A model generated the notes under the pieces. It did no database searches. It saw nothing but the letters and a program-made list of their open reading frames with translations, and was not told where the DNA came from. From the IMG/VR virus record IMGVR_UViG_3300046736_000122, positions 1-64,000 of that record: DNA of 64,000 bases; one strand, 5' to 3'. The stretch is from a virus. The position numbers and the translations under genes were made by a program. Of the stretch, positions 2,364-49,624 are shown piece by piece (the first letter of the stretch is position 1; every line of letters begins with the position of its first letter).

Positions 2364-2878
2364 GTCCGGCCGCGCGGGGCTCAACGCAGAACGAACGCGA
2401 CCTGGAGCTCGCGAAGCGTGCCAACGCGTTCGGCGCGAACTACTCGCTTCGCATCATCCTCGAAGCCCGCCGGGCAGGCATCCCGATCTCCCTCGGCTTC
2501 GCGCTCATCGAGCAGGAGTCGAACTTCTCCAACGTCTTCGGCCACGACCCCGGCAACCACTCGGGAGCGGGTCGGGTGACGAAATCGAAGTACGAGGCGT
2601 ATCGGGCGCGTCGCGGGCCGACCGGGCGCGGCGGGATGCAAGGCGTGGGCCCAGCGCAGTTGACCTACTACACCGTGCAGGATGCCGCCGACACGCTCGG
2701 CGGCTGCTGGGTCCCGAAGCACAACATCCGCGTCGCGTTCGAGCTGCTGGCCAACCTGATCGCGCAGCACGGCGAAGAGCAGGGCCTCGCCCGCTACAAC
2801 GGAACGGGGCCTGCGGCGCAGCGCTATAGCCGCAAGGTTCTCGAGCGCCAAGCGAAGTGGCATCGGCGGCTGACATGA
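2360..2878 (+). CDS. lytic transglycosylase (SLT / lysozyme-like) endolysin
   Basis: ALIEQESNF catalytic Glu, GVGPAQL, ARYNG motifs. Confidence 0.8.
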   Translation: MSPAARGSTQNERDLELAKRANAFGANYSLRIILEARRAGIPISLGFALIEQESNFSNVFGHDPGNHSGAGRVTKSKYEAYRARRGPTGRGGMQGVGPAQLTYYTVQDAADTLGGCWVPKHNIRVAFELLANLIAQHGEEQGLARYNGTGPAAQRYSRKVLERQAKWHRRLT

Positions 2879-2993
2879 TGAGCGGGGTCGGATACGGGAC
2901 GGGGCCGGGCCAGACGTTGTGGTTCTGCCACTGCTGCCAGTGGGCCGGGTTCCTGCCGGTTGGCTACGGGCATCGATGCAAGGGAACCAAGCC

Positions 2994-3326
2994 ATGAGCA
3001 CCGACGACAGCATCTCGGGTGTCTCTCACGATGGGGGCCGCGCCGAGCGCATTGCGCAGCCATGGACGCCGGACGGCGCCCCCGGCGTCATCGCGATCGG
3101 CTACCTGCCGATCCGGTCTGAGGCCGAGGCGATCGCGCTTCACCAGGCGCTGCTGACAGCGACCGGTGGCGAAGTGTACGGCGCGACCGGCGACCAGCTG
3201 CAAGACCTGCTTGCCCGCGTGAACGAGATGCTCATCGCGATCGTCCACGAGCGCGATGCGGCGCAGGCAGTCGGCGCGGAGCCCGGCCTTGCCGCGCCGA
3301 GCGTCGCCGATCGTGAGAACTCGTGA
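2994..3326 (+). CDS. hypothetical protein
   Basis: ATGA-coupled ORF with high-GC codon usage. Confidence 0.5.
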   Translation: MSTDDSISGVSHDGGRAERIAQPWTPDGAPGVIAIGYLPIRSEAEAIALHQALLTATGGEVYGATGDQLQDLLARVNEMLIAIVHERDAAQAVGAEPGLAAPSVADRENS

Positions 3327-39390: not shown

Positions 39391-39762
39391 ATGAGCCGCG
39401 CCGCGCAGGTCTGGACGCGCTTCAACCCGCCGCGCGAGCCGATGCAGATGGCGGCTGTTGCGCCGCAAGACTTCGCGTGGTTCGCGTTCGCAGCTGACGA
39501 GCAGGTCCAGGCGGTCGAGGTCCGCGACGAAGGTGAGCGGCACGTCACGGTCACGCACGCGGCAGGCGACTGCATCGGCGCGGCTGGAATGCTGCGCCAT
39601 CGCCTCCTCCAGTGGCACAACACCGACTACGGCCTGACGGACGAGCAGCTGGTTGCCTGCGCGGCCGAAGCGCGCGCCTACGTCGGCGGCAGACGGCTGA
39701 GTTGGACGACGATCGCGGCTGACCGTATTCGCGCCGCAGCCGAACCTCCGGCGCGGCCATGA
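39391..39762 (+). CDS. hypothetical protein
   Basis: coupled to terL. Confidence 0.5.
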   Translation: MSRAAQVWTRFNPPREPMQMAAVAPQDFAWFAFAADEQVQAVEVRDEGERHVTVTHAAGDCIGAAGMLRHRLLQWHNTDYGLTDEQLVACAAEARAYVGGRRLSWTTIAADRIRAAAEPPARP

Positions 39763-41411
39763 CCCTCCCCGCCTGGGCCGCATTGGCGGCCGACTACCGC
39801 GACCCACCCGACGACGACGGCAGCGATCGTGAGCTCGCCCTCCGCTGCTCACGCGATCTGCGGGTGTTCATCCGGGAGGCCTGGCCGATCCTCGAGCCCG
39901 CCAGGCCGTTCGTTGGGAACTGGCACATCGACTGCGTTGCCGAGCACCTGATGGCGGTCAGCGCGGGGGAGATGCCGCGACTGCTGATCAACCAGCCGCC
40001 GAACACGACGAAGAGCGTCACGACGGCCGTGTGCTGGTCGGCGTGGGAGTGGATCGACTCGCCGCACCTGCGCTGGATGTTCGCCTCCTACGCCGAGAAG
40101 TTCGCGTTGCGGGACTCACGCAAGCAGCGCGACCTCATCGCCAGCCGCGGCGGCAAGCCCGACGGCCGGCTGTTTCAGCGCCGCGGCTACCAGGGCCTTC
40201 TCGCTCTCCTCGGCAAGTCGTGGCAGTTGTCGTCCGACCAGAACGCGAAGGGCCGCTACGACACGACGGCGGGCGGCATGCGGCTCGCTACCGCGATCCG
40301 TGGCCAGGCGACGGGCGATCACGCCGACCGCATCGTTGTCGACGACCCGCTGAATCCCGAGCAGGCGTACTCGCAGGTCGACCGCGAGCGCGTGAACCGC
40401 TGGTGGGACGGCACGATGAAGAGCCGCTTCATCGACGACAAGGCCACGGCCGTCATCGTCGCCCAGCGCCTTCACGAGAACGACCTGCCCGGCTACCTGC
40501 TCGCGCAGGACGCGGGGTGGCATCACCTGTGTCTGCCGGCGGAGTACATCCCAAGCCACCAGTTCACCTACCCAGCGAAGGTGCGGCTGGCGTCTGGCCG
40601 GGAGATCGACGGCGACCCGCGCACCGAGCCGGGCGAGCTGCTTGACCCGGTGCGGCTGAGCGAGGCCGCGCTCGCCGAACATCGCGGCAACTCGTTCGTC
40701 TTCGCCGGCCAGTTCCAGCAGCAGCCGGCGCCGGAGGGCGGCGGCATGTTCAAGCGCGACTGGTTCGAGCCGCGCTGGCAACCCGGCTTCGACCGCTACC
40801 TCGAGCTTGGCTTCGACCGGGTCATCCAGTCGTGGGATATGGCGTTCAAGGACACGAAGGGCTCAGACTTCGTTGTCGGCCAGGTGTGGGGATTCCACGG
40901 CGCCGACTGCTACCTGCTCGCGCAGGTCCGTGGTCGCTTCGAGTTCTCCGTCACGCTGCACGTCTTCCGTGCGTTGACAGCGTTCGAGCCGCGCGCGATC
41001 GCCAAGCTCGTCGAGGACAAGGCGAACGGGCCGGCGGTCATCAGCGCGCTGCGACACGAGATCCGCGGCATCATCCCGTACACCCCGAAGGACAGCAAGC
41101 CGGCGCGCGCTCGCGCCGTGACGCCGCTGTTCGAGGCGCGCAACGTCGTGCTGCCCGCGGCTGACACGATCCCGTGCCCGGAGTTCTACATGGACGAGCG
41201 CGGCCGTCGGCACGAGATCCCGCCGACGACGGTCAGCGACTACATCCACGAGTTGGCGGTCTTCGATTCCGGCGCGAATGACGATCAGGTCGACGCGACG
41301 TCGCAGGCGCTTGAGTGGGCGAACCCGATGCCGCGTGCACCCGAGCCCGATGAGCCACGGCAGGGTGTGGCTGAGACTCCGATGTCGGGAATCTTGGGCG
41401 TGAAGTGGTGA
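39759..41411 (+). CDS. terL: terminase large subunit
   Basis: LLINQPPNTTKS, IVVDDP, QRLHENDL, SWDMAFK, EDKANG, NDDQVDATSQAL. Confidence 0.93.
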   Translation: MTLPAWAALAADYRDPPDDDGSDRELALRCSRDLRVFIREAWPILEPARPFVGNWHIDCVAEHLMAVSAGEMPRLLINQPPNTTKSVTTAVCWSAWEWIDSPHLRWMFASYAEKFALRDSRKQRDLIASRGGKPDGRLFQRRGYQGLLALLGKSWQLSSDQNAKGRYDTTAGGMRLATAIRGQATGDHADRIVVDDPLNPEQAYSQVDRERVNRWWDGTMKSRFIDDKATAVIVAQRLHENDLPGYLLAQDAGWHHLCLPAEYIPSHQFTYPAKVRLASGREIDGDPRTEPGELLDPVRLSEAALAEHRGNSFVFAGQFQQQPAPEGGGMFKRDWFEPRWQPGFDRYLELGFDRVIQSWDMAFKDTKGSDFVVGQVWGFHGADCYLLAQVRGRFEFSVTLHVFRALTAFEPRAIAKLVEDKANGPAVISALRHEIRGIIPYTPKDSKPARARAVTPLFEARNVVLPAADTIPCPEFYMDERGRRHEIPPTTVSDYIHELAVFDSGANDDQVDATSQALEWANPMPRAPEPDEPRQGVAETPMSGILGVKW

Positions 41412-41957: not shown

Positions 41958-42148
41958 CGCGGCTGCGGGAGGTCGGCAAGGGGCTGTTCTACGGCCTCGC
42001 TCCGTGGTGGCTGTACGAGCGCGAGTGCCACTACGCCGGCTGGTCGTATCGCGAACATCTCGCTGAGAATCTGCGCCTCGCGTGGCGATGGGCGACGTGG
42101 CGCGAGACGAAGGGCGACCGCGAGTTCGCCGCCGAGGCATCCTCGTGA
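41954..42148 (+). CDS. hypothetical protein
   Basis: coupled to the portal gene. Confidence 0.5.
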   Translation: MTRLREVGKGLFYGLAPWWLYERECHYAGWSYREHLAENLRLAWRWATWRETKGDREFAAEASS

Positions 42149-45100
42149 CCACCCGCCGGCTCGACCTCGCCGCCGCGGCAGCCAACGTCAAGGCCGCGGC
42201 CAGCGGCCCCCTCGACCAGAAGTCAAGCGTCTTCCCCGAACTCACCGGCTTCAGCGGACTGCCAGGGTGGTCGTACTTCATCCCGCAGGAACGCGAACTC
42301 TCCGAGGCATGGCGTGGCCGCAAGCGTCTCGAAACGGTCGACGAGATGCTCAACCACTATCAGGTGGCAGCGTGCTGGCAGGCCGTGCGGTTGCCGGTCC
42401 ACCGGTACGTCATTGAGCTTGCGCCGCGCCGCGCGAACATCGTCGACGCTGACCTCATCGCCTCGGACCTCGATGTCCCGCTGCAAGGCCACGAGGACAC
42501 ATCAGACCGCGATCGTGACGAGGAGGACTTCAGCCAGCGCCGCCACCTCGACCGCGCACTGGACGCCGTCACGATCGGCCACGCGGTGTTCGAGCAGGTC
42601 GGCTACATCGACCAGGCCGGCACGTGGCGGCTACGCGATCTCGCGCCGGTGCCGCAGTGGACGCTCGACGACGCGTCGTGGAAGGTAGACAAGCACGGCA
42701 AGTTGCTGGAGGTCGTGCAGTATGGCGCGACACCGGAGGTGCGCATCCCGGCCGATCATCTCGCCGTGTTCACGTGGCAGGGGGCACCGGGCGACTTCCG
42801 CGGACGGTCGATCCTCAGGCCGTTGACGGCGCCGTGGATGCTGTCGGACCGCGGGATGCGCGTGACGGGGATGGCGATGGAACGCACCGGCATGGGGATC
42901 CCGGTCGGCAAGGTCGGGATGGGCGCCGGGGTGCAGGCCAAGCAGGACATGGAACGGCTGCTGCGCAACCTCGCGGCCGGCGAGAACACGAACCTCGTGC
43001 TCGAAACGGACGAGGACATTCAGAAATCGATGATGCTGATGGGTGTCACGGGCTCAACCCCGGATCTCGTCGGGATCCTGCGCCACTGGGATGAAGCGAT
43101 CGCCCGCGCGATGCTCGCGTCGTTGCTGCAACTCGGGTCGACGGAGACGGGTAGCCGCGCGCTCGGCGAGACGTTCGACGACCTGCTGTCGATGTTTCAC
43201 GACACGGTCGTCACGTGGTACTGCGACGCGATGAACCGGCTCGTGCGGCTGTGGATGATTCGCAACCGTGGGCCGGATGCGCCGCGACCGATGCTTGTGT
43301 GGAAGCGCCGCGACGACGAGGGCGTGCCAGCACCCGCTCCCGCCGACACGCCACCCGTTCCCGCCGGCCCCACGCCCGTGGCAGCCAAGCGCCGCCCGAT
43401 GACCGCCGCGGCCCGCCACGAACGCAAGGCGAAGGCGACACGCACCGCGTTCGCTCAGGCCGCCGGCCGGGACCTTCGCCGCGACCCGACCCCGGCCGAG
43501 CTCGCGGCGGGCACCGACTTCTCACGGCTCGAGCGCGAGCACGTCGCGGCGAGAGAAGACCTCGCGGCGGTGTTGCTGCGCGAGCGCGATGACCTCGCCG
43601 CGCGCGCGGTCGAGATCATCGCCGCGATGCCGACCGTCGACCCGCTCACGTTGGGTGCTGTTCTCGGCCCGCAGCTCGCCGGTCACGCGGCCGGGATGGA
43701 CACTGGTCCGCTCGTCACGCTGCTCGAAGCATCGGCCGCGCAAGGCCAGGCGCAGGTGGTCGCGGAGGCGGCCACGCAGGGCGTCACGATCACGCCCGAC
43801 GTCGACTACGCGGCGCGCGCGGCCGTCGAGGCGAACGAGCTTCAGCGCCGCATGGCGGTGCAGGTGACGGAGGCGTGTGCGGCGGCGGCGAAGACGATCG
43901 TTCCTGCCGCGCCGGCGGTGCGGGCTCGCCGCGGCTTCATGTCGAAGCTTCGCCCGCCCGCGCGGCTGGCAACGATCGAGGCGGGCACGATCGAGGACTT
44001 TCTGTCGTCGCTGTCCCCCGCCGCGGCCGAACAGGCTGCGGCGGGAGCGACATCGAGGGCGAACGGTGGCGGACGGTTCGGCGCGATCGCGTCCGCGCCG
44101 ACGCAAGCTGTCTACGCAAGCGAACTGCTTGACGAGAACACGTGCGTCGCTCCCGACGCACTCGTGATGACGGCTGAAGGCGAGAAGCCGGCTGCCGAGA
44201 TCACGCTACGGGATCGCCTCCTCACGCACGCAGGGCGGTACATCGCACCATCGGCCATCGTGCCGTCAGATGCGAAGGGTGAGCTGGTCCGGGTGCTGGT
44301 AGGGGGTCGCACGCTTCGGGCGACGCCCGACCACCGCGTGCTTGTCGTCCGGGGGAATAGCCTCGCCTGGCGCGAGGCGGGCGAACTGCTCGTGGGCGAT
44401 CTCATGGTCAGCGAGGCGACTGCGCAGACGGGCAGCGAACCCATCAGCCATGATGTCCGACTCGGGGATGCGCCACACGGTGAGCCCCCGCGACTCAAGG
44501 TCGGCGGTTTTGCGCCGGTCAGCATCGGGCCGCAGCGAGTGCCAGTAGGTGCCGTCCGCTTCGATGACGACCGCGCCGAGGAGGAAGTCCACGACCCACG
44601 GCCCGACCTGGGCCTGGGCGGTGTGGCGCAGGCGCGCCACTTCAAGGATCTCGCGGACGACGCGCTCGATACTCGTCTCGGCATCGCTGGCGACGTAGCA
44701 TCGTCGCGAGCAGTACCGCTTGCGCGACTCGGCGGACGGCACTATGCGGATGGTCTTCCCGCAGTGCTGACAGTCGATAAGGACCGGCGGCCTACGGCAG
44801 GCTTCGCAGCAGTGACGGCGCGGCGTCTTCCGCCCGTGGCGGAAGGGGGCCCCGCATCGCTCGCAGGTTGCGTCGCGTCCACGGTGGGCGTTCGAGCAGG
44901 CGCGGGTGCAGTAGTTGTAGCGAGGCGCGTTGGACGCGGGGATGTCGAAGTTCGTTCCGCATCCGACGCATGTCTTCGTCACGCGGTGGCGTGGGCGGCC
45001 CGGGTAACTCGCGTGGTCCTTAGAGCGACAGGCGTGCGAGCAGTACTTGGCCCTACGTCGTTGTCTGCCAGTGATCTCGGCGCCGCATCGCTTACAGATC

Positions 45101-45480
45101 GGCGTGGGCCGATGAGCGTTCCGGCTTGTCCACCGTGCGACCGCGGCACAAGATCTACAGCGCTGACCGGTGACGACGGGCTTGCCGCAGTCCATACACG
45201 TCTTGTCCATAAGAAGATGGTACTAATGCGCGTGGACGCGACGACGGTCACGCGATACGTGGGTCGCGTCTTCGACTTCACGATCCCCGGCGATCACACG
45301 TTCTTCGCGGAAGGTGTCCTTGTGCACAACTGCGGCCCGTGCGCGGATGTCGACGGCCGCGAGTACGAGTCGATCGAGGACGCGATGCTGGACTATCCGA
45401 GCCTCGGCGGGTTCTTCGACTGCGAGGGCGGCGAGCGTTGTCGCGGGACGGCGGTTGCCGTGTTCGAGGGCGAGGTCTAG
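42145..45480 (+). CDS. portal protein (DUF935 / Mu gp29-like) fused to a gpF-like head-morphogenesis domain, intein-containing
   Basis: GRSILRP, ERTGMGIPVG, GSRALGE portal motifs; the spliced C-terminus reads LDENT-CGPC..DG..C..RCRG. Confidence 0.85.
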   Translation: MTTRRLDLAAAAANVKAAASGPLDQKSSVFPELTGFSGLPGWSYFIPQERELSEAWRGRKRLETVDEMLNHYQVAACWQAVRLPVHRYVIELAPRRANIVDADLIASDLDVPLQGHEDTSDRDRDEEDFSQRRHLDRALDAVTIGHAVFEQVGYIDQAGTWRLRDLAPVPQWTLDDASWKVDKHGKLLEVVQYGATPEVRIPADHLAVFTWQGAPGDFRGRSILRPLTAPWMLSDRGMRVTGMAMERTGMGIPVGKVGMGAGVQAKQDMERLLRNLAAGENTNLVLETDEDIQKSMMLMGVTGSTPDLVGILRHWDEAIARAMLASLLQLGSTETGSRALGETFDDLLSMFHDTVVTWYCDAMNRLVRLWMIRNRGPDAPRPMLVWKRRDDEGVPAPAPADTPPVPAGPTPVAAKRRPMTAAARHERKAKATRTAFAQAAGRDLRRDPTPAELAAGTDFSRLEREHVAAREDLAAVLLRERDDLAARAVEIIAAMPTVDPLTLGAVLGPQLAGHAAGMDTGPLVTLLEASAAQGQAQVVAEAATQGVTITPDVDYAARAAVEANELQRRMAVQVTEACAAAAKTIVPAAPAVRARRGFMSKLRPPARLATIEAGTIEDFLSSLSPAAAEQAAAGATSRANGGGRFGAIASAPTQAVYASELLDENTCVAPDALVMTAEGEKPAAEITLRDRLLTHAGRYIAPSAIVPSDAKGELVRVLVGGRTLRATPDHRVLVVRGNSLAWREAGELLVGDLMVSEATAQTGSEPISHDVRLGDAPHGEPPRLKVGGFAPVSIGPQRVPVGAVRFDDDRAEEEVHDPRPDLGLGGVAQARHFKDLADDALDTRLGIAGDVASSRAVPLARLGGRHYADGLPAVLTVDKDRRPTAGFAAVTARRLPPVAEGGPASLAGCVASTVGVRAGAGAVVVARRVGRGDVEVRSASDACLRHAVAWAARVTRVVLRATGVRAVLGPTSLSASDLGAASLTDRRGPMSVPACPPCDRGTRSTALTGDDGLAAVHTRLVHKKMVLMRVDATTVTRYVGRVFDFTIPGDHTFFAEGVLVHNCGPCADVDGREYESIEDAMLDYPSLGGFFDCEGGERCRGTAVAVFEGEV
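44266..45210 (-). CDS. Zn-finger + Vsr/DUF559-type endonuclease, antisense inside the intein
   Basis: about five CxxC..C(S/T/E)xxC units, then ETSIE..VVDF..IEADGTYWH..DRRKT..GLTVWRI. Confidence 0.88.
   Translation of the reverse strand: MDKTCMDCGKPVVTGQRCRSCAAVARWTSRNAHRPTPICKRCGAEITGRQRRRAKYCSHACRSKDHASYPGRPRHRVTKTCVGCGTNFDIPASNAPRYNYCTRACSNAHRGRDATCERCGAPFRHGRKTPRRHCCEACRRPPVLIDCQHCGKTIRIVPSAESRKRYCSRRCYVASDAETSIERVVREILEVARLRHTAQAQVGPWVVDFLLGAVVIEADGTYWHSLRPDADRRKTADLESRGLTVWRIPESDIMADGFAARLRSRLADHEIAHEQFARLAPGEAIPPDDKHAVVGRRPKRATPYQHPDQLTLRI
45217..45222 (-). promoter_or_regulatory. -10 box TACCAT for the antisense endonuclease
   Basis: TACCAT-cttctt-ATG, the same 6-nt spacing as other leaderless promoters in this genome. 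Confidence 0.55.
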
Positions 45481-45487
45481 TCCAGGT

Positions 45488-45841
45488 CTAGACCGGGCCG
45501 CCGCCGTACCGTTCGTGCGCGGCTTGCTTGCTGATTCGAAGGGCCGCGCCGACCTGCGCCCATGACGCGCCTTGCGCACGGGCTTCGGCGACGAGTCGCG
45601 CCGCGCGAGCTTCTACGGCCTCGCGCTCGCCGGGGATCGCCATGAGTTCGGCGAGCGGGGAGGGCGCCGGGTCTGAGGCCGCCGTCACGATCGTCGGCCG
45701 CTCTCTCAACTTCTCGAATGTCTGTGAGGCAACGACCATCGGCGTGGGCACCGTTTCGGCGTTGTCCACCAGGCAAACCGATGGCGAGTCGAAGACCCGG
45801 CCGCAACCCGGACAGACGTGCAAGATCACCGGCTCAGGCAT
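45488..45841 (-). CDS. Zn-ribbon + HTH protein (moron)
   Basis: CPGCG; ARAQGASWAQVGAALRISKQAAHERY. Confidence 0.7.
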   Translation of the reverse strand: MPEPVILHVCPGCGRVFDSPSVCLVDNAETVPTPMVVASQTFEKLRERPTIVTAASDPAPSPLAELMAIPGEREAVEARAARLVAEARAQGASWAQVGAALRISKQAAHERYGGGPV

Positions 45842-45857
45842 GACGAGCGACCCCCCT

Positions 45858-46067
45858 TTACCACAGGCCGGGCGCCCGGTAGGTCGCCCGTACGCATGCT
45901 TGACACTGGCGCAGTCGATCGGAAGGCCGTGGCTGATCGTGCGGCGGTAGCTCGACGTTGCCCGGCGTTAGTTCGGAGGTGTCGGTCTGTGGTGCTTGCC
46001 AGCCCTGCCATGGCTCGCCGCATGCCGTGTTGTTGCCGTCAGCTATGTGTGCGACGTAATCGCTCAC
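45858..46067 (-). CDS. hypothetical protein (moron)
   Basis: GTGA overlap with the upstream gene. Confidence 0.5.
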   Translation of the reverse strand: MSDYVAHIADGNNTACGEPWQGWQAPQTDTSELTPGNVELPPHDQPRPSDRLRQCQACVRATYRAPGLW

Positions 46068-46408
46068 GCTGCGTGCGCTACGCCGTGGTTCGCGCCGCCG
46101 CACGAGCAGTCGCAGGCGGGGCCGGTGGCGGTCGTGCAGCGCGCGTCGCACTTGTGGTCCGGGACGAGGCGACCCTTGACGGACGCCAGACGGTAGACGC
46201 CGTGCTCCGGGCAGCGTGCGGAGACTGCAACCCCGTTGAGGATGAACGGGAGGGCGGCGTCGTACGTGGCGCCGGCCGCGGTCAGGAGAGCGTTGTCGCC
46301 GTCGCGGCGGTAGGAGGAGTCAAGATCCTGCACGTCGGCGCCGAGGACGTAGGTCGCGTGCTTGCAGCCCTTCGTCTTGCACTTGCCGAGGTAAGCGGTG
46401 GAGTTCAT
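46064..46408 (-). CDS. Cys-rich hypothetical protein (moron, leaderless)
   Basis: CDARCTTATGPACDCSCGGANHG. Confidence 0.7.
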   Translation of the reverse strand: MNSTAYLGKCKTKGCKHATYVLGADVQDLDSSYRRDGDNALLTAAGATYDAALPFILNGVAVSARCPEHGVYRLASVKGRLVPDHKCDARCTTATGPACDCSCGGANHGVAHAA

Positions 46409-46456
46409 GCGTCAAGACTACCTGACGCCGCGCGGTGTGTCAAGACATCCTGACGC
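46409..46456 (-). promoter_or_regulatory. TTGACA-N17-TAGTCT promoter with two operator-like palindromes
   Basis: GCGTCAAGACTACCTGACGC (46409-46428) and GTGTCAAGACATCCTGACGC (46437-46456). Confidence 0.8.
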
Positions 46457-48655: not shown

Positions 48656-49624
48656 ATGCCAACCACAGTCGGCAGCGTCCCCGTCGGGACGCAGACCACC
48701 GCCACGGGCGACACCATCTCGGTGTCGTACCTGCGCGAAAACCCGCTCGTGCTCGCCGGCCGGCTCGGCGAGGTCATGGAGCTTGAGTACTTCGTCGACC
48801 TGATCCTGCCGAACGTCGGCACGCCGAAGAGCGGCGTGATCGTCTACCGCGAGGCCGACCCGACGCGGATGACGCTCAACCGCTCGGCGGAGGAACTCGC
48901 GCCGGACGCCGAGGTCCCGCTCGCTGGGATCGTCGAGGGTGACCTGAAGTACGCCATCGCGAAGACCGACGGCCTCGGTATGGTCATCACCGACGACGAG
49001 GCCGACGAGAACCAGCTGTTCGTCGTGGAGGACAAGGAACTCGCGCTCGCGAACAGCATGTCGGACCGCTTCAACTCGCGCGGCGTCACGGTCATCAAGG
49101 CCGCGATCACGGCGAACTCGCGGACGTTCGATGTCGGCGCGGGCGACTGGTCGGCGCTCGTCACGGACGGTGCGAACCCGGATCCGCTGTCGCTGTGGCC
49201 GCACGCGCAGATCGCGCAGATTCGCGCGCAGCAGACGGTCGACCGGATCCCGTGGCGTTTCAACGGGATGCTCGCGCACCCGATGGAGATCTGGCGGCTG
49301 TCGACGATCTACCTCAAGAACGCGGGTGTCGGCGGCGAGGCCCCGGTCCCCTCCGCGGCGGTCCTCAACGCGCTCGCCGGGAAGCTCGGCCTGGACCTCA
49401 TCGTCGAGGACAACACGGGCGGCATCGAGCGCGGCAAGCCGATCCTGTTCAGTCGCGGCCACGTCGGCGGGACGGGCTGGCAGAAGCCGATCAACGTCGA
49501 GAAGATCCCGGAGCGCGGACGGCGCCGCACCCGCTTCGATGCGGTTGGCAAGGCCGTGTACTTCGTGAACAACCCGTACGGCCTCCTGCAGCTCGAAGGC
49601 ACTGCCGATCAGGATCTCGCGTGA
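48656..49624 (+). CDS. major capsid protein
   Basis: AGGAGG SD; size and position; EELAPDAEVP; NNPYGLLQLEG end. Confidence 0.75.
   Translation: MPTTVGSVPVGTQTTATGDTISVSYLRENPLVLAGRLGEVMELEYFVDLILPNVGTPKSGVIVYREADPTRMTLNRSAEELAPDAEVPLAGIVEGDLKYAIAKTDGLGMVITDDEADENQLFVVEDKELALANSMSDRFNSRGVTVIKAAITANSRTFDVGAGDWSALVTDGANPDPLSLWPHAQIAQIRAQQTVDRIPWRFNGMLAHPMEIWRLSTIYLKNAGVGGEAPVPSAAVLNALAGKLGLDLIVEDNTGGIERGKPILFSRGHVGGTGWQKPINVEKIPERGRRRTRFDAVGKAVYFVNNPYGLLQLEGTADQDLA

What the first reader, a model, noticed from the sequence alone, without database searches (positions are those of the whole stretch)
44143..45330. Intein whose homing endonuclease is a separate gene on the opposite strand
Seen: a canonical Cys1...TxxH...HN/Cys+1 intein is inserted in the LDENT|CGPC motif. 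The ~270 aa between splicing blocks B and F show no LAGLIDADG or HNH motif and read like antisense shadow. The reverse strand of that same stretch (45210 to 44266) is a coherent 314-aa gene: tandem Cys4 Zn fingers plus an E..D..ExDGxxWH..D Vsr/DUF559-type nuclease. Its stop lies within the antisense of the N-terminal splicing domain. Both frames use the same triplets; GC-biased codons rarely give TTA/CTA/TCA, so the sense frame can stay open. Established: Vsr-like (EDxHD) homing endonucleases exist, and intein endonucleases are normally in-frame domains. Inference: a bidirectionally coded selfish element in which the intein removes the passenger peptide and the antisense nuclease supplies mobility. 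Novelty should be checked against the literature on non-canonical inteins.
Basis: partly seen in the sequence, partly recalled or inferred. Interest (0 to 1): 0.92.

Follow-up and report, generated by a model that had tools for sequence, protein, structure and literature searches.

The report
Phage intein with antisense homing-endonuclease gene
A self-splicing protein insert (intein) in a phage head-assembly gene carries its DNA-cutting "homing" enzyme as a separate gene on the opposite DNA strand; the layout is real and widespread, but a 2025 preprint already describes this kind of intein.

Summary
Observation confirmed. Window 44143-45330 (+) is a canonical class-1 intein (C1, TPDH, VHN|C) in the tail of a portal/MuF-like head protein of a complete 73-kb phage record. 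Window 45210-44266 (-) is a 314-aa gene with five Cys4 zinc ribbons and an EDxHD/Vsr-like nuclease domain. It is read on the same triplets as the intein.

The minus strand carries the constraint across the insert: GC3 is 0.81 against 0.64, and substitutions pile up at nuclease codon position 3. The constraint switches to the intein frame where the nuclease tail overlaps the N-terminal splicing domain. AlphaFold2 folds the nuclease (pLDDT 87.5; best PDB match I-Bth0305I, 3r3p). It leaves intein residues 99-356 unfolded.

The layout recurs at the same D..T|CxxC site in 45 further non-redundant loci with GC 0.32-0.72, including Chloroflexota records. None has a stop-making codon, and most have a -10 promoter box ahead of the nuclease gene. 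Free-standing relatives sit convergent to intein-less MuF genes.

It is not new in kind. Gosselin, Arsenault and Gogarten (bioRxiv 2025) report antisense VSR-like homing endonucleases in full inteins, and they cite antisense LAGLIDADG cases from 1998 and 2002. This scan has also noted the same layout before on other DNA. Splicing, expression and cleavage remain untested.

The parts
42082..44142 (+). N-extein: Mu-type portal domain plus linker, ending in ...SELLDENT (the D..T half of the conserved D..T|CxxC motif).
   Evidence: Pfam Portal_Mu E 1.5e-32 on residues 84-422. PHROG 113 portal protein E 1.7e-47. GC3 is 0.86.
44143..45330 (+). Class-1 intein, 396 aa: C1, T61xxH64 (TPDH), and VHN396 followed by Cys+1.
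   Evidence: C1, T61, H64, V394, H395 and N396 are invariant in 46 aligned inteins.
44143..44436 (+). N-terminal splicing domain (intein residues 1-98).
   Evidence: AlphaFold2 10-residue block means are 94-98 for residues 1-90 and 74 for 91-100, all beta strands. In the part that overlaps the nuclease tail, the intein frame is the better conserved one.
44437..45210 (+). Read-through insert (intein residues 99-356). It is translated with the precursor and removed with the intein. No fold is predicted. It mirrors the nuclease gene.
   Evidence: Residues 99-356 lie almost wholly in segments with pLDDT below 50 and have almost no secondary structure, even with a 46-sequence alignment. GC3 is 0.64 against GC1 0.81. 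Amino-acid identity among close relatives is 0.38, against 0.56 for the antisense frame.
45223..45330 (+). C-terminal splicing domain (residues 361-396, ...VFDFTIPGDHTFFAEGVLVHN).
   Evidence: pLDDT 96-98. V394, H395 and N396 are invariant.
45331..45480 (+). C-extein (49 aa plus stop): CGPCADVDG...RCRG, the MuF-like tail.
   Evidence: Homologous C-exteins were found in 8 loci by tblastn. There is a weak PHROG 595 match.
44266..45210 (-). Homing-endonuclease gene, 314 aa plus stop, on the same triplets as the intein frame.
   Evidence: GC3 0.81. 54 homologues with E down to 1e-126. Model pLDDT 87.5. There is one copy in the 73-kb phage record.
44698..45198 (-). Five CxxC...CxxxC zinc-ribbon modules (nuclease residues 5-171), the presumed DNA-binding region.
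   Evidence: C81, C84, C101, C105, C147, C150, C167 and C171 are invariant. C39, C42, C57, C61, C116, C119, C134 and C138 are nearly invariant. pLDDT is about 90. The modules match PHROGs annotated as phage 'HNH endonuclease'.
44395..44679 (-). EDxHD / Vsr-like catalytic domain (nuclease residues 178-272).
   Evidence: The A1 profile matches 3r3p_A at E 2.9e-15. Foldseek gives 3r3p E 2.5e-5, TM(target) 0.80, rmsd 2.6. E182, D208, E217, H224 and D231 are invariant.
44266..44346 (-). Nuclease C-terminal tail (residues 289-314), antisense to intein residues 42-68; probably unstructured.
   Evidence: pLDDT is below 50 for 289-301, 303-306 and 308-314. In the wider tail (residues 253 onward), substitutions peak at nuclease codon position 1, which is intein position 3.
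45217..45222 (-). Candidate -10 box TACCAT, ending 6 nt before the nuclease ATG (leaderless layout). No Shine-Dalgarno sequence is present.
   Evidence: Sequence read. This is only a 4/6 match, and the generic scan found no sigma-70 promoter. Support comes from relatives. In 13 of the 44 listings where a start was chosen (46 attempted, 2 gave none), a TANNNT box starts exactly 12 nt before the chosen start. A -10 box matching at least 5 of 6 is found in 30 of 46 loci against 5.0 expected.

Best explanation
This is a composite selfish element in a phage head gene.

The + strand encodes a portal/MuF-like precursor interrupted at D..T|CxxC by a class-1 intein. The whole 396-aa intein is translated, including about 258 unstructured residues that are only the mirror image of the gene opposite. 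The intein then splices itself out and restores the head protein.

The - strand of the insert encodes an independent 314-aa homing endonuclease with five zinc ribbons and an EDxHD/Vsr-like catalytic domain. It is probably transcribed from a promoter embedded in the coding sequence of the intein's C-terminal splicing domain. In this high-GC lineage the mRNA is probably leaderless.

The nuclease is inferred to cut intein-less MuF alleles of co-infecting phages near the TCxxC codons. Recombinational repair would then copy the intein and the nuclease gene together.

The same-triplet antisense register is what makes this workable. Only Leu TTA/CTA and Ser TCA codons in the nuclease would create stops in the host frame, and synonymous choice avoids them.

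Shown: the anatomy, the strand-specific constraint, the folds, and recurrence of the layout. Inferred: splicing, transcription, cleavage specificity and homing.
For: Anatomy and families.

Codon statistics:
- Nuclease GC3 is 0.81, against 0.64 for the + frame across the overlap. The flanks have + GC3 of 0.86-0.90.
- Among 8 close relatives, differences at nuclease codon positions 1/2/3 are .339/.313/.495 in the insert. Amino-acid identity there is .56 (nuclease frame) against .38 (+ frame).
- The pattern reverses to .485/.335/.388 (.378 against .446) where the nuclease tail overlaps the N-splicing domain.

Nuclease family:
- 54 homologues, with invariant Cys, E, D, H and D residues.
- Profile match to I-Bth0305I (3r3p) at E 2.9e-15.
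- D208 and H224 align with the D196A and H213A positions mutated in that crystal.
- Model pLDDT 87.5; Foldseek top hit 3r3p, TM 0.80.

Intein model: splicing domain block means are 94-98 for residues 1-90 and 96-98 for 361-396, while residues 99-356 are almost wholly below 50.

Family level:
- 45 of 50 long antisense ORFs from related loci have the same D..T|C...HN|CxxC junctions.
- Pfam Intein_splicing matches 44 of 51.
- All embedded cases use register 0.
- 48 of 59 nuclease clusters have no TTA/CTA/TCA codon, against 6.8 expected.
- A -10 box matching at least 5 of 6 occurs upstream of the nuclease in 30 of 46 loci against 5.0 expected. With a TG extension it occurs in 23 of 46 against 0.8 expected.
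- In 8 of 17 non-embedded clusters (10 with L027 and L002), free-standing relatives lie convergent to intein-less MuF genes, with the nuclease match ending 8-200 nt from the MuF C-terminal block. This ties the nuclease family to this target gene.
Against: - There are no expression data: no RNA run holds the stretch.
- The window's own -10 candidate is only a 4/6 match, and the generic promoter scan found nothing.
- The open + frame is not significant in this window alone (P 0.13-0.17).
- Absence of stop-making codons shows only that the host frame must be read through. It does not show that the nuclease is active. 4 of the 16 non-embedded clusters, leaving out the 70-codon fragment L008, also lack such codons in the aligned core.
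- No intein-less allele of this phage was seen in the metagenome contigs laid on it, so ongoing homing is not shown.
- Target DNA around the site is conserved only at the Asp and Cys codons.
- The window's host protein does not itself reach Pfam Phage_Mu_F.
Confidence: 0.8

Rival explanations
1. The nuclease gene is intact in sequence but retired. The intein is now fixed and vertically inherited in this lineage (a late stage of the homing cycle), and the antisense ORF is not expressed or no longer cuts anything useful.
For: No intein-less allele was seen in 4 soil or rhizosphere runs (contigs only, which is weak). The promoter match in the window is weak. The preprint says some VSR-like cases look vertically inherited.
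Against: All invariant catalytic and zinc-binding residues are kept. The third-position substitution pattern and GC3 show purifying selection on the nuclease frame across relatives of about 50% identity. The preprint argues that an unused antisense ORF should decay quickly, since host-frame selection does not protect it.
Confidence: 0.12
2. The nuclease is in effect a free-standing phage endonuclease that merely lodges in the intein as a harmless parking place. Its benefit comes from cutting competitor phage DNA (marker exclusion), or from a target elsewhere, not from homing of the intein as a unit.
For: Free-standing relatives exist beside intein-less MuF genes and beside a DNA methyltransferase gene in cluster-P mycobacteriophages. 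On a quick tree, embedded and free-standing forms are interleaved: 12 changes, at least 6 forced by well-supported branches.
Against: Both forms are tied to the same MuF gene region. In the 8 intein-less MuF loci the nuclease match ends 8-200 nt from the MuF C-terminal block, and in L002 the two genes end 10 nt apart. That is what is expected if the cut site is there. Any cut near the site repaired from an intein-bearing donor would copy intein and nuclease together, so the two readings overlap mechanistically.
Confidence: 0.07
3. The minus-strand ORF is a chance open 'shadow' frame of a GC-rich gene, and the + frame insert is the real, unrecognised functional domain.
For: Antisense register-0 frames are often open in this window.
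Against: There are 54 homologues, including free-standing genes. Pfam DUF559, the 3r3p profile match and the fold match all support a real nuclease. The nuclease model is confident whereas the + insert is almost wholly below pLDDT 50. GC3 and substitution patterns favour the minus frame.
Confidence: 0.01

Closest known systems
Inteins with an antisense VSR-like homing endonuclease in actinobacteriophages (Gosselin, Arsenault, Gogarten; bioRxiv 10.1101/2025.01.02.630785, version of 2025-10-20). I read the abstract, all of sections 8 and 15, and passages found by term search. Supplements are closed.
   Same: A full, unsplit intein. The endonuclease is encoded on the antisense strand between the splicing blocks. 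The in-frame insert has no recognisable structure. The endonuclease is related to I-Bth0305I (3R3P). The authors propose origin from free-standing phage endonucleases.
   Different: Their set comes from PhagesDB cultured phages. This one is an uncultivated phage, and its nuclease found only free-standing or partial matches in 50,697 deposited phage records. The text I could read does not mention promoters (0 occurrences). 'Stop codon' occurs twice; the one occurrence shown concerns endonuclease decay, not codon avoidance. It describes no non-actinobacterial relatives. Their supplementary tables were not visible, so I cannot say whether the D..T|CxxC MuF site is in their list.
Antisense LAGLIDADG endonucleases in inteins: Ssp DnaX and the Chloroflexus SpoVR-like protein (Gorbalenya 1998; Gogarten 2002, known to me only as cited in the preprint), and the Gordonia phage Lennon and Barsten MuF-like minor capsid inteins examined here.
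   Same: The endonuclease lies on the opposite strand inside an unsplit intein. In Lennon and Barsten it also uses the same triplet register and sits in a MuF-like head protein.
   Different: A different nuclease family (LAGLIDADG-type...AAFIDGEG...) and a different insertion site (N|CRC, not T|CxxC).
I-Bth0305I and the EDxHD homing-endonuclease family (Taylor et al. 2011, PMC3239194; passages read).
   Same: The Vsr-like catalytic fold and the E/D/H/D active-site residues. The family is associated with self-splicing elements of phage genes.
   Different: I-Bth0305I sits in a group I intron and binds DNA through N-terminal NUMOD/HTH motifs. This protein has five N-terminal Cys4 zinc ribbons and sits antisense in an intein.
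'Fractured genes': split inteins with a free-standing Vsr-like or GIY-YIG endonuclease gene between the halves (Dassa et al. 2009, PMC2677866; passages read).
   Same: A Vsr-like endonuclease gene occupies the endonuclease slot of an intein in phage genes. Short coding overlaps occur between the endonuclease and the intein parts.
   Different: There, all three ORFs are on the same strand and the intein is split by a stop and a restart. Here the intein frame is continuous and the endonuclease is on the opposite strand, overlapping it completely.

Membership tests
Class-1 intein (HINT splicing domain) | Cys/Ser/Thr at position 1 and a block B TxxH motif. | tested here: met
   C1 and T61-P-D-H64 are present. 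They are invariant in 46 aligned inteins.
Class-1 intein (HINT splicing domain) | C-terminal His-Asn followed by Cys/Ser/Thr at +1. | tested here: met
   ...GVLVHN|CGPC.
Class-1 intein (HINT splicing domain) | Profile match above the curated threshold. | tested here: met
   PF14890 scores 44.8 bits against a cut-off of 35.8. The two splicing lobes are modelled with block-mean pLDDT 94-98 for residues 1-90 and 96-98 for 361-396. The model was not compared with solved structures.
Class-1 intein (HINT splicing domain) | Protein splicing activity. | not testable with these tools
   Needs expression of the precursor and detection of the ligated exteins.
EDxHD / Vsr-like homing endonucleases (I-Bth0305I type) | Vsr-like nuclease fold. 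| tested here: met
   Foldseek: 3r3p_A E 2.5e-5, TM(target) 0.80, rmsd 2.6 A. Profile E 2.9e-15.
EDxHD / Vsr-like homing endonucleases (I-Bth0305I type) | Conserved E, D, H, D active-site residues. | tested here: met
   E182, D208, H224 and D231 (plus E217) are invariant in 27 sequences. D208 and H224 align with the D196A and H213A positions of the crystal construct.
EDxHD / Vsr-like homing endonucleases (I-Bth0305I type) | Site-specific cleavage next to the insertion site of the element-free allele. | not testable with these tools
   Only indirect evidence: free-standing relatives lie beside intein-less MuF genes.
EDxHD / Vsr-like homing endonucleases (I-Bth0305I type) | N-terminal NUMOD/HTH DNA-binding region (a feature of the prototype, not of the catalytic family). 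| tested here: not met
   The N-terminal 171 residues are five Cys4 zinc ribbons. The free-standing L002 relative adds a C-terminal extension with a weak Pfam HTH_3 match (E 0.0036, below the cut-off).
Inteins with an antisense-encoded homing endonuclease | A complete endonuclease ORF on the opposite strand between the splicing blocks, with the host frame open across it. | tested here: met
   The same is true in 45 related loci.
Inteins with an antisense-encoded homing endonuclease | The in-frame insert is not itself a folded endonuclease domain. | tested here: met
   No Pfam family matches the insert. Residues 99-356 are almost wholly below pLDDT 50.
Fractured gene / split intein (Dassa 2009) | The intein is broken into two ORFs, with the endonuclease gene between them on the same strand. 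| tested here: not met
   There is a single uninterrupted 1132-aa frame, and the nuclease is on the opposite strand.
Phage_Mu_F (PF04233) host domain | Profile match of the extein. | tested here: not met
   The window's protein, its N-extein tail and the intein-less L002 homologue give no PF04233 match. 21 of 51 related host proteins do match, and they share the D..T|CxxC..G motif. I therefore call it 'MuF-like' by motif only.

The most novel reading that the evidence does not exclude
The D..T|CxxC MuF intein with its antisense zinc-ribbon EDxHD endonuclease is one old, very widespread composite element. It occurs in phages of at least two bacterial phyla (Actinomycetota and Chloroflexota records), across GC 0.32-0.72. 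It carries its own extended -10 promoter inside the coding sequence of the intein's C-terminal splicing domain. It has switched repeatedly between two states aimed at the same gene: antisense inside the intein, and free-standing convergent just downstream of an intein-less MuF gene. If so, intein-borne and free-standing homing endonucleases are interconvertible stages of one life cycle, not separate classes.
Probability: 0.45. Interest if true: 0.55.

Novelty: new member of a known kind. Interest (0 to 1): 0.4.

Why it matters
This is a clean, well-supported case of two proteins encoded on opposite strands of the same codons, and each strand carries the constraint only where its own protein needs it.

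Practical consequences:
- Annotation pipelines miss the nuclease gene and may call such inteins decaying or mini. The nuclease homologue is unannotated in mycobacteriophage KilKor, and the antisense ORF is unannotated in Gordonia phages Lennon and Barsten.
- The family-level data extend the 2025 preprint's observation beyond cultured actinophages.
- They add a codon-avoidance test, a conserved embedded promoter, and free-standing relatives beside the empty target gene. Together these make the "free-standing endonuclease invades an intein" model directly testable.
- The zinc-ribbon EDxHD enzymes could also be a source of new sequence-specific nucleases.

Tried and rejected
- Chance shadow ORF: rejected (see the rival explanations).
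- Split intein or fractured gene: rejected, because the frame is continuous.
- Megablast of the whole gene against deposited phages: no match.
- Generic promoter and terminator scan of 43900-45700: nothing found.
- RNA evidence: no RNA holder was listed for window 43600-45800.
- Contigs of four soil or rhizosphere DNA runs laid on the stretch: short identical pieces cover both intein junctions in X1 (records 4 and 6). There were no joints, so there is no sign of an intein-less form. Coverage is low and these are contigs only, so this says nothing either way.
- Intein-seeded scan of viral contigs with the full 46-sequence alignment failed for lack of a conserved stretch. Repeated with 8 close N-terminal domains, it returned the same 7 contigs already found through the nuclease. 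It also returned 7 unrelated HINT proteins without the nuclease. I therefore found no close relative of this intein that lacks the nuclease, but n is only 7.
- Tree of nucleases: only the quick tree was obtained, because the careful search did not finish in 300 s. Row L008 (70 codons) was left out. Interleaving of embedded and free forms should be treated as provisional. The label was not significantly clustered (44 of 500 shuffles as low).
- Stop-codon avoidance: sorting loci by 'open frame' and then counting stop-making codons is partly circular. The fair figure is therefore 48 of 59 clusters with none against 6.8 expected. In the 43 intein-confirmed clusters with a background, about 137 such codons were expected and none was seen (rows, minus L008 and L079). 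The 12 clusters classed as free had 66 (61 in the 11 with a background, against 45.5 expected).
- Start codons were chosen by a heuristic: the nearest start before the first CxxC.
- The preprint's supplementary tables, which may list host sites and phages, could not be seen.
- The ORF listing did not list the 727-aa ORF of L089 that translate shows to be open. I relied on my own scripts for the ORF statistics.

Full report
**What is there.** The window belongs to a complete 73,276-bp virus record with direct terminal repeats. Around the finding lie a terminase large subunit gene (39759-41411; Terminase_6C), a capsid protein gene (48656-49624) and other head genes.

The + ORF 42082..45480 (1132 aa) begins with a Mu-type portal domain (PF06074, E 1.5e-32). 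It ends in a short tail carrying ...LDENT|...|CGPCADVDG...RCRG. Between T and C lies a 396-aa insert, 44143-45330. It has Cys1, TPDH at residues 61-64 and VHN before Cys+1. It matches Pfam Intein_splicing at 44.8 bits against a cut-off of 35.8. The junction DNA was read directly.

On the minus strand, 45210..44266 is a 314-aa ORF on exactly the same triplets. It matches DUF559 at E 1.8e-6.

**Is it more than chance?** Not from the open frames alone. With this window's codon usage, a 314-codon gene lacks TTA, CTA and TCA with P 0.17. Empirically, antisense register-0 frames of sure genes are open over 314 codons with P 0.13. The evidence that both strands code is different in kind.

1. GC3 is 0.81 for the minus ORF and 0.64 for the + frame across the overlap. 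The + frame has GC3 0.86-0.90 on either side.
2. The minus ORF has 54 homologues in the protein collection, the best at E 1e-126 and 66% identity. All Cys pairs and E182, D208, E217, H224 and D231 are invariant or nearly so.
3. A profile of these homologues matches the catalytic domain of the homing endonuclease I-Bth0305I (3r3p) at E 2.9e-15. It also matches DUF559 protein 3hrl and Vsr. D208 and H224 align with the two residues mutated to inactivate the crystallised I-Bth0305I domain, D196A and H213A.
4. AlphaFold2 with 27 sequences gives mean pLDDT 87.5 for the nuclease, with only residues 289-314 falling below 50. Foldseek ranks 3r3p first (E 2.5e-5, TM on target 0.80, rmsd 2.6 A).
5. The intein modelled with 46 sequences gives block-mean pLDDT 94-98 for residues 1-90 and 96-98 for 361-396. 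Residues 99-356 are almost wholly below 50, with almost no secondary structure.

**Which strand is under selection where?** I compared the window with seven relatives of about 50% identity. In the insert (nuclease residues 12-250), differences at nuclease codon positions 1/2/3 are .339/.313/.495. The nuclease frame is 56% identical against 38% for the + frame.

In the nuclease tail (residues 253 onward), which overlaps the intein's N-terminal splicing domain, the pattern reverses to .485/.335/.388. Identity there is 38% for the nuclease frame against 45% for the intein frame. Constraint therefore changes strand where the functional domains change.

There is a short zone where both models are structured: the nuclease's last helix (residues 258-272) lies opposite roughly intein residues 85-99.

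**The family.** It returned 8 loci from genomes and 80 from viral contigs. These fall into 62 nuclease clusters at 90% identity.

- In 68 of 88 loci the nuclease ORF is wholly covered by a long open antisense frame, always in register 0.
- I aligned 50 such frames with the window's protein. Of these, 45 show the same junctions, D..T|C[FL]P... ...LVHN|CxxC..G, with inteins of 371-467 aa. Five (L008, L022, L061, L074, L079) are not inteins.
- Pfam finds Intein_splicing in 44 of 51, Phage_Mu_F in 21, and portal families in 10.
- The loci span GC 0.32-0.72. They include records titled Streptomyces, Dehalococcoidales, Ktedonobacterales and Oscillochloris.
- Across all 59 clusters with a local codon background, 48 have no TTA/CTA/TCA codon in the nuclease core, against 6.8 expected. 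In low-GC loci the expectation is 5-13 such codons each.

This shows that the host frame must be read through, so the intein is translated and presumably splices. It does not by itself show nuclease activity. Four of the 16 non-embedded clusters (leaving out the 70-codon fragment L008) also lack such codons in the aligned core. An earlier check in this scan made the same caution about a 'filter on arrival'.

**Expression signals.** Upstream of the nuclease ATG the window reads TACCAT, then 6 nt, then ATG, with no Shine-Dalgarno sequence. The match is weak (4/6), and the generic scan found nothing.

Across the family the signal is strong. A -10 hexamer matching TATAAT in at least 5 of 6 positions lies within 100 nt upstream of the first CxxC codon in 30 of 46 loci, against 5.0 expected from the rest of each locus. 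With a TG extension it occurs in 23 of 46 against 0.8 expected.

In 13 of the 44 listings where a start could be chosen (46 attempted, 2 gave none), a TANNNT box starts exactly 12 nt before the chosen start. Several lower-GC loci instead have TGnTATAAT followed by a Shine-Dalgarno sequence. The promoter lies inside the coding sequence of the intein's C-terminal splicing domain. No RNA data were available.

**Link to the target.** Among the 17 non-embedded clusters, 8 have an intein-less MuF gene whose N- and C-extein blocks are contiguous. That gene lies convergent to the nuclease gene, with the nuclease match ending 8-200 nt from the MuF C-terminal block.

L027 (C block only) and the Micromonospora locus L002 fit the same picture. 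In L002 a 683-aa portal protein ends ...EGPNT-CKPCRKVNG..., and a 448-aa nuclease homologue ends 10 nt away on the other strand. Free-standing phage endonucleases usually sit next to the site they cut in rivals. This is the best available evidence, though indirect, that the family targets the MuF TCxxC region.

On a quick tree, free-standing and embedded forms are interleaved: 12 changes by parsimony, at least 6 forced by well-supported branches. L002 nests inside the window's clade at 99% support. The careful search did not finish. How such switches happen mechanically is unexplained.

**Comparison with what is known.** Text searches led to bioRxiv 10.1101/2025.01.02.630785 (Gosselin, Arsenault, Gogarten). 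I read its abstract, all of sections 8 and 15, and passages found by term search.

The preprint reports LAGLIDADG or VSR-like endonucleases encoded on the antisense strand of full inteins in actinobacteriophages, and an HHpred match of the VSR-like one to 3R3P. It notes that minor-capsid inteins carry only non-canonical endonucleases. It proposes origin by invasion of inteins by free-standing endonucleases. It cites antisense LAGLIDADG cases from Gorbalenya 1998 and Gogarten 2002, which I did not see myself.

The kind is therefore known. In the deposited phage collection I found MuF-like minor capsid inteins in Gordonia phages Lennon and Barsten. They sit at a different site (N|CRC) and carry an antisense LAGLIDADG-type ORF in register 0. 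The window's own nuclease found only free-standing or partial matches there.

Dassa et al. 2009 describe the related 'fractured genes' (split intein, same-strand Vsr-like endonuclease). The present element fails that definition. Taylor et al. 2011 define the EDxHD family. The present nuclease meets the fold and active-site criteria but has zinc ribbons in place of NUMOD/HTH motifs.

This scan has itself reported the same MuF intein layout on other genomes several times.

**Verdict.** The mechanism is a splicing intein plus an independently expressed antisense EDxHD homing endonuclease that targets the empty MuF allele. I judge it likely (0.8) but untested.

This is a new member of a known kind. 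Its added value lies in three things: the breadth of the family, the quantitative evidence for strand-switching constraint and stop-codon avoidance, and the embedded promoter together with the free-standing relatives beside the empty target gene.

Noticed in passing
L002:5893-9300; also L004, L022, L023, L027, L032, L061, L074, L084, L088: Free-standing homologues of the nuclease lie convergent to intein-less MuF or portal-MuF genes, with the nuclease match ending 8-200 nt from the MuF C-terminal block (10 nt between the two genes in L002). The L002 form has an extra C-terminal extension with a weak HTH match. L022, L061 and L074 still lack TTA/CTA/TCA codons and group with an embedded form on the quick tree, as if they had recently left an intein.
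   Followed up: partly
L089 (Mycobacterium phage KilKor NC_053209.1), locus 2444-3304 +: A 29%-identical nuclease homologue lies unannotated in KilKor. It is convergent with, and overlaps the 3' end of, DNA methyltransferase gene 53. Gene 53 itself contains what looks like an in-frame intein (C...N|S junctions). Sister cluster-P phages annotate the homologue as a hypothetical protein or an endonuclease.
   Followed up: partly
L105:2603-3682 (Gordonia phage Lennon) and L106:2603-3280 (Barsten), minus strand: The MuF-like minor capsid genes of these phages hold an intein at N|CRC. Its antisense register-0 frame encodes a LAGLIDADG-type protein (...AAFIDGEG...) that is not annotated in the records.
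   Followed up: partly
window about 44395-44439: There is a short zone of true double coding where both predicted proteins are structured: the nuclease's last helix (residues 258-272) lies opposite roughly intein residues 85-99.
   Followed up: no
window 45488-46456, minus strand: Directly after the portal/MuF gene lie minus-strand ORFs inside an otherwise plus-strand head module: 45488..45841 (117 aa) and 46064..46408 (114 aa, Cys-rich). An earlier first-reader note calls this an antisense moron cassette.
   Followed up: no
L089:3240-5420 minus strand: Tool quirk: the ORF listing with starts 'none' did not list this 727-aa ORF, although translate shows it to be open.
   Followed up: no
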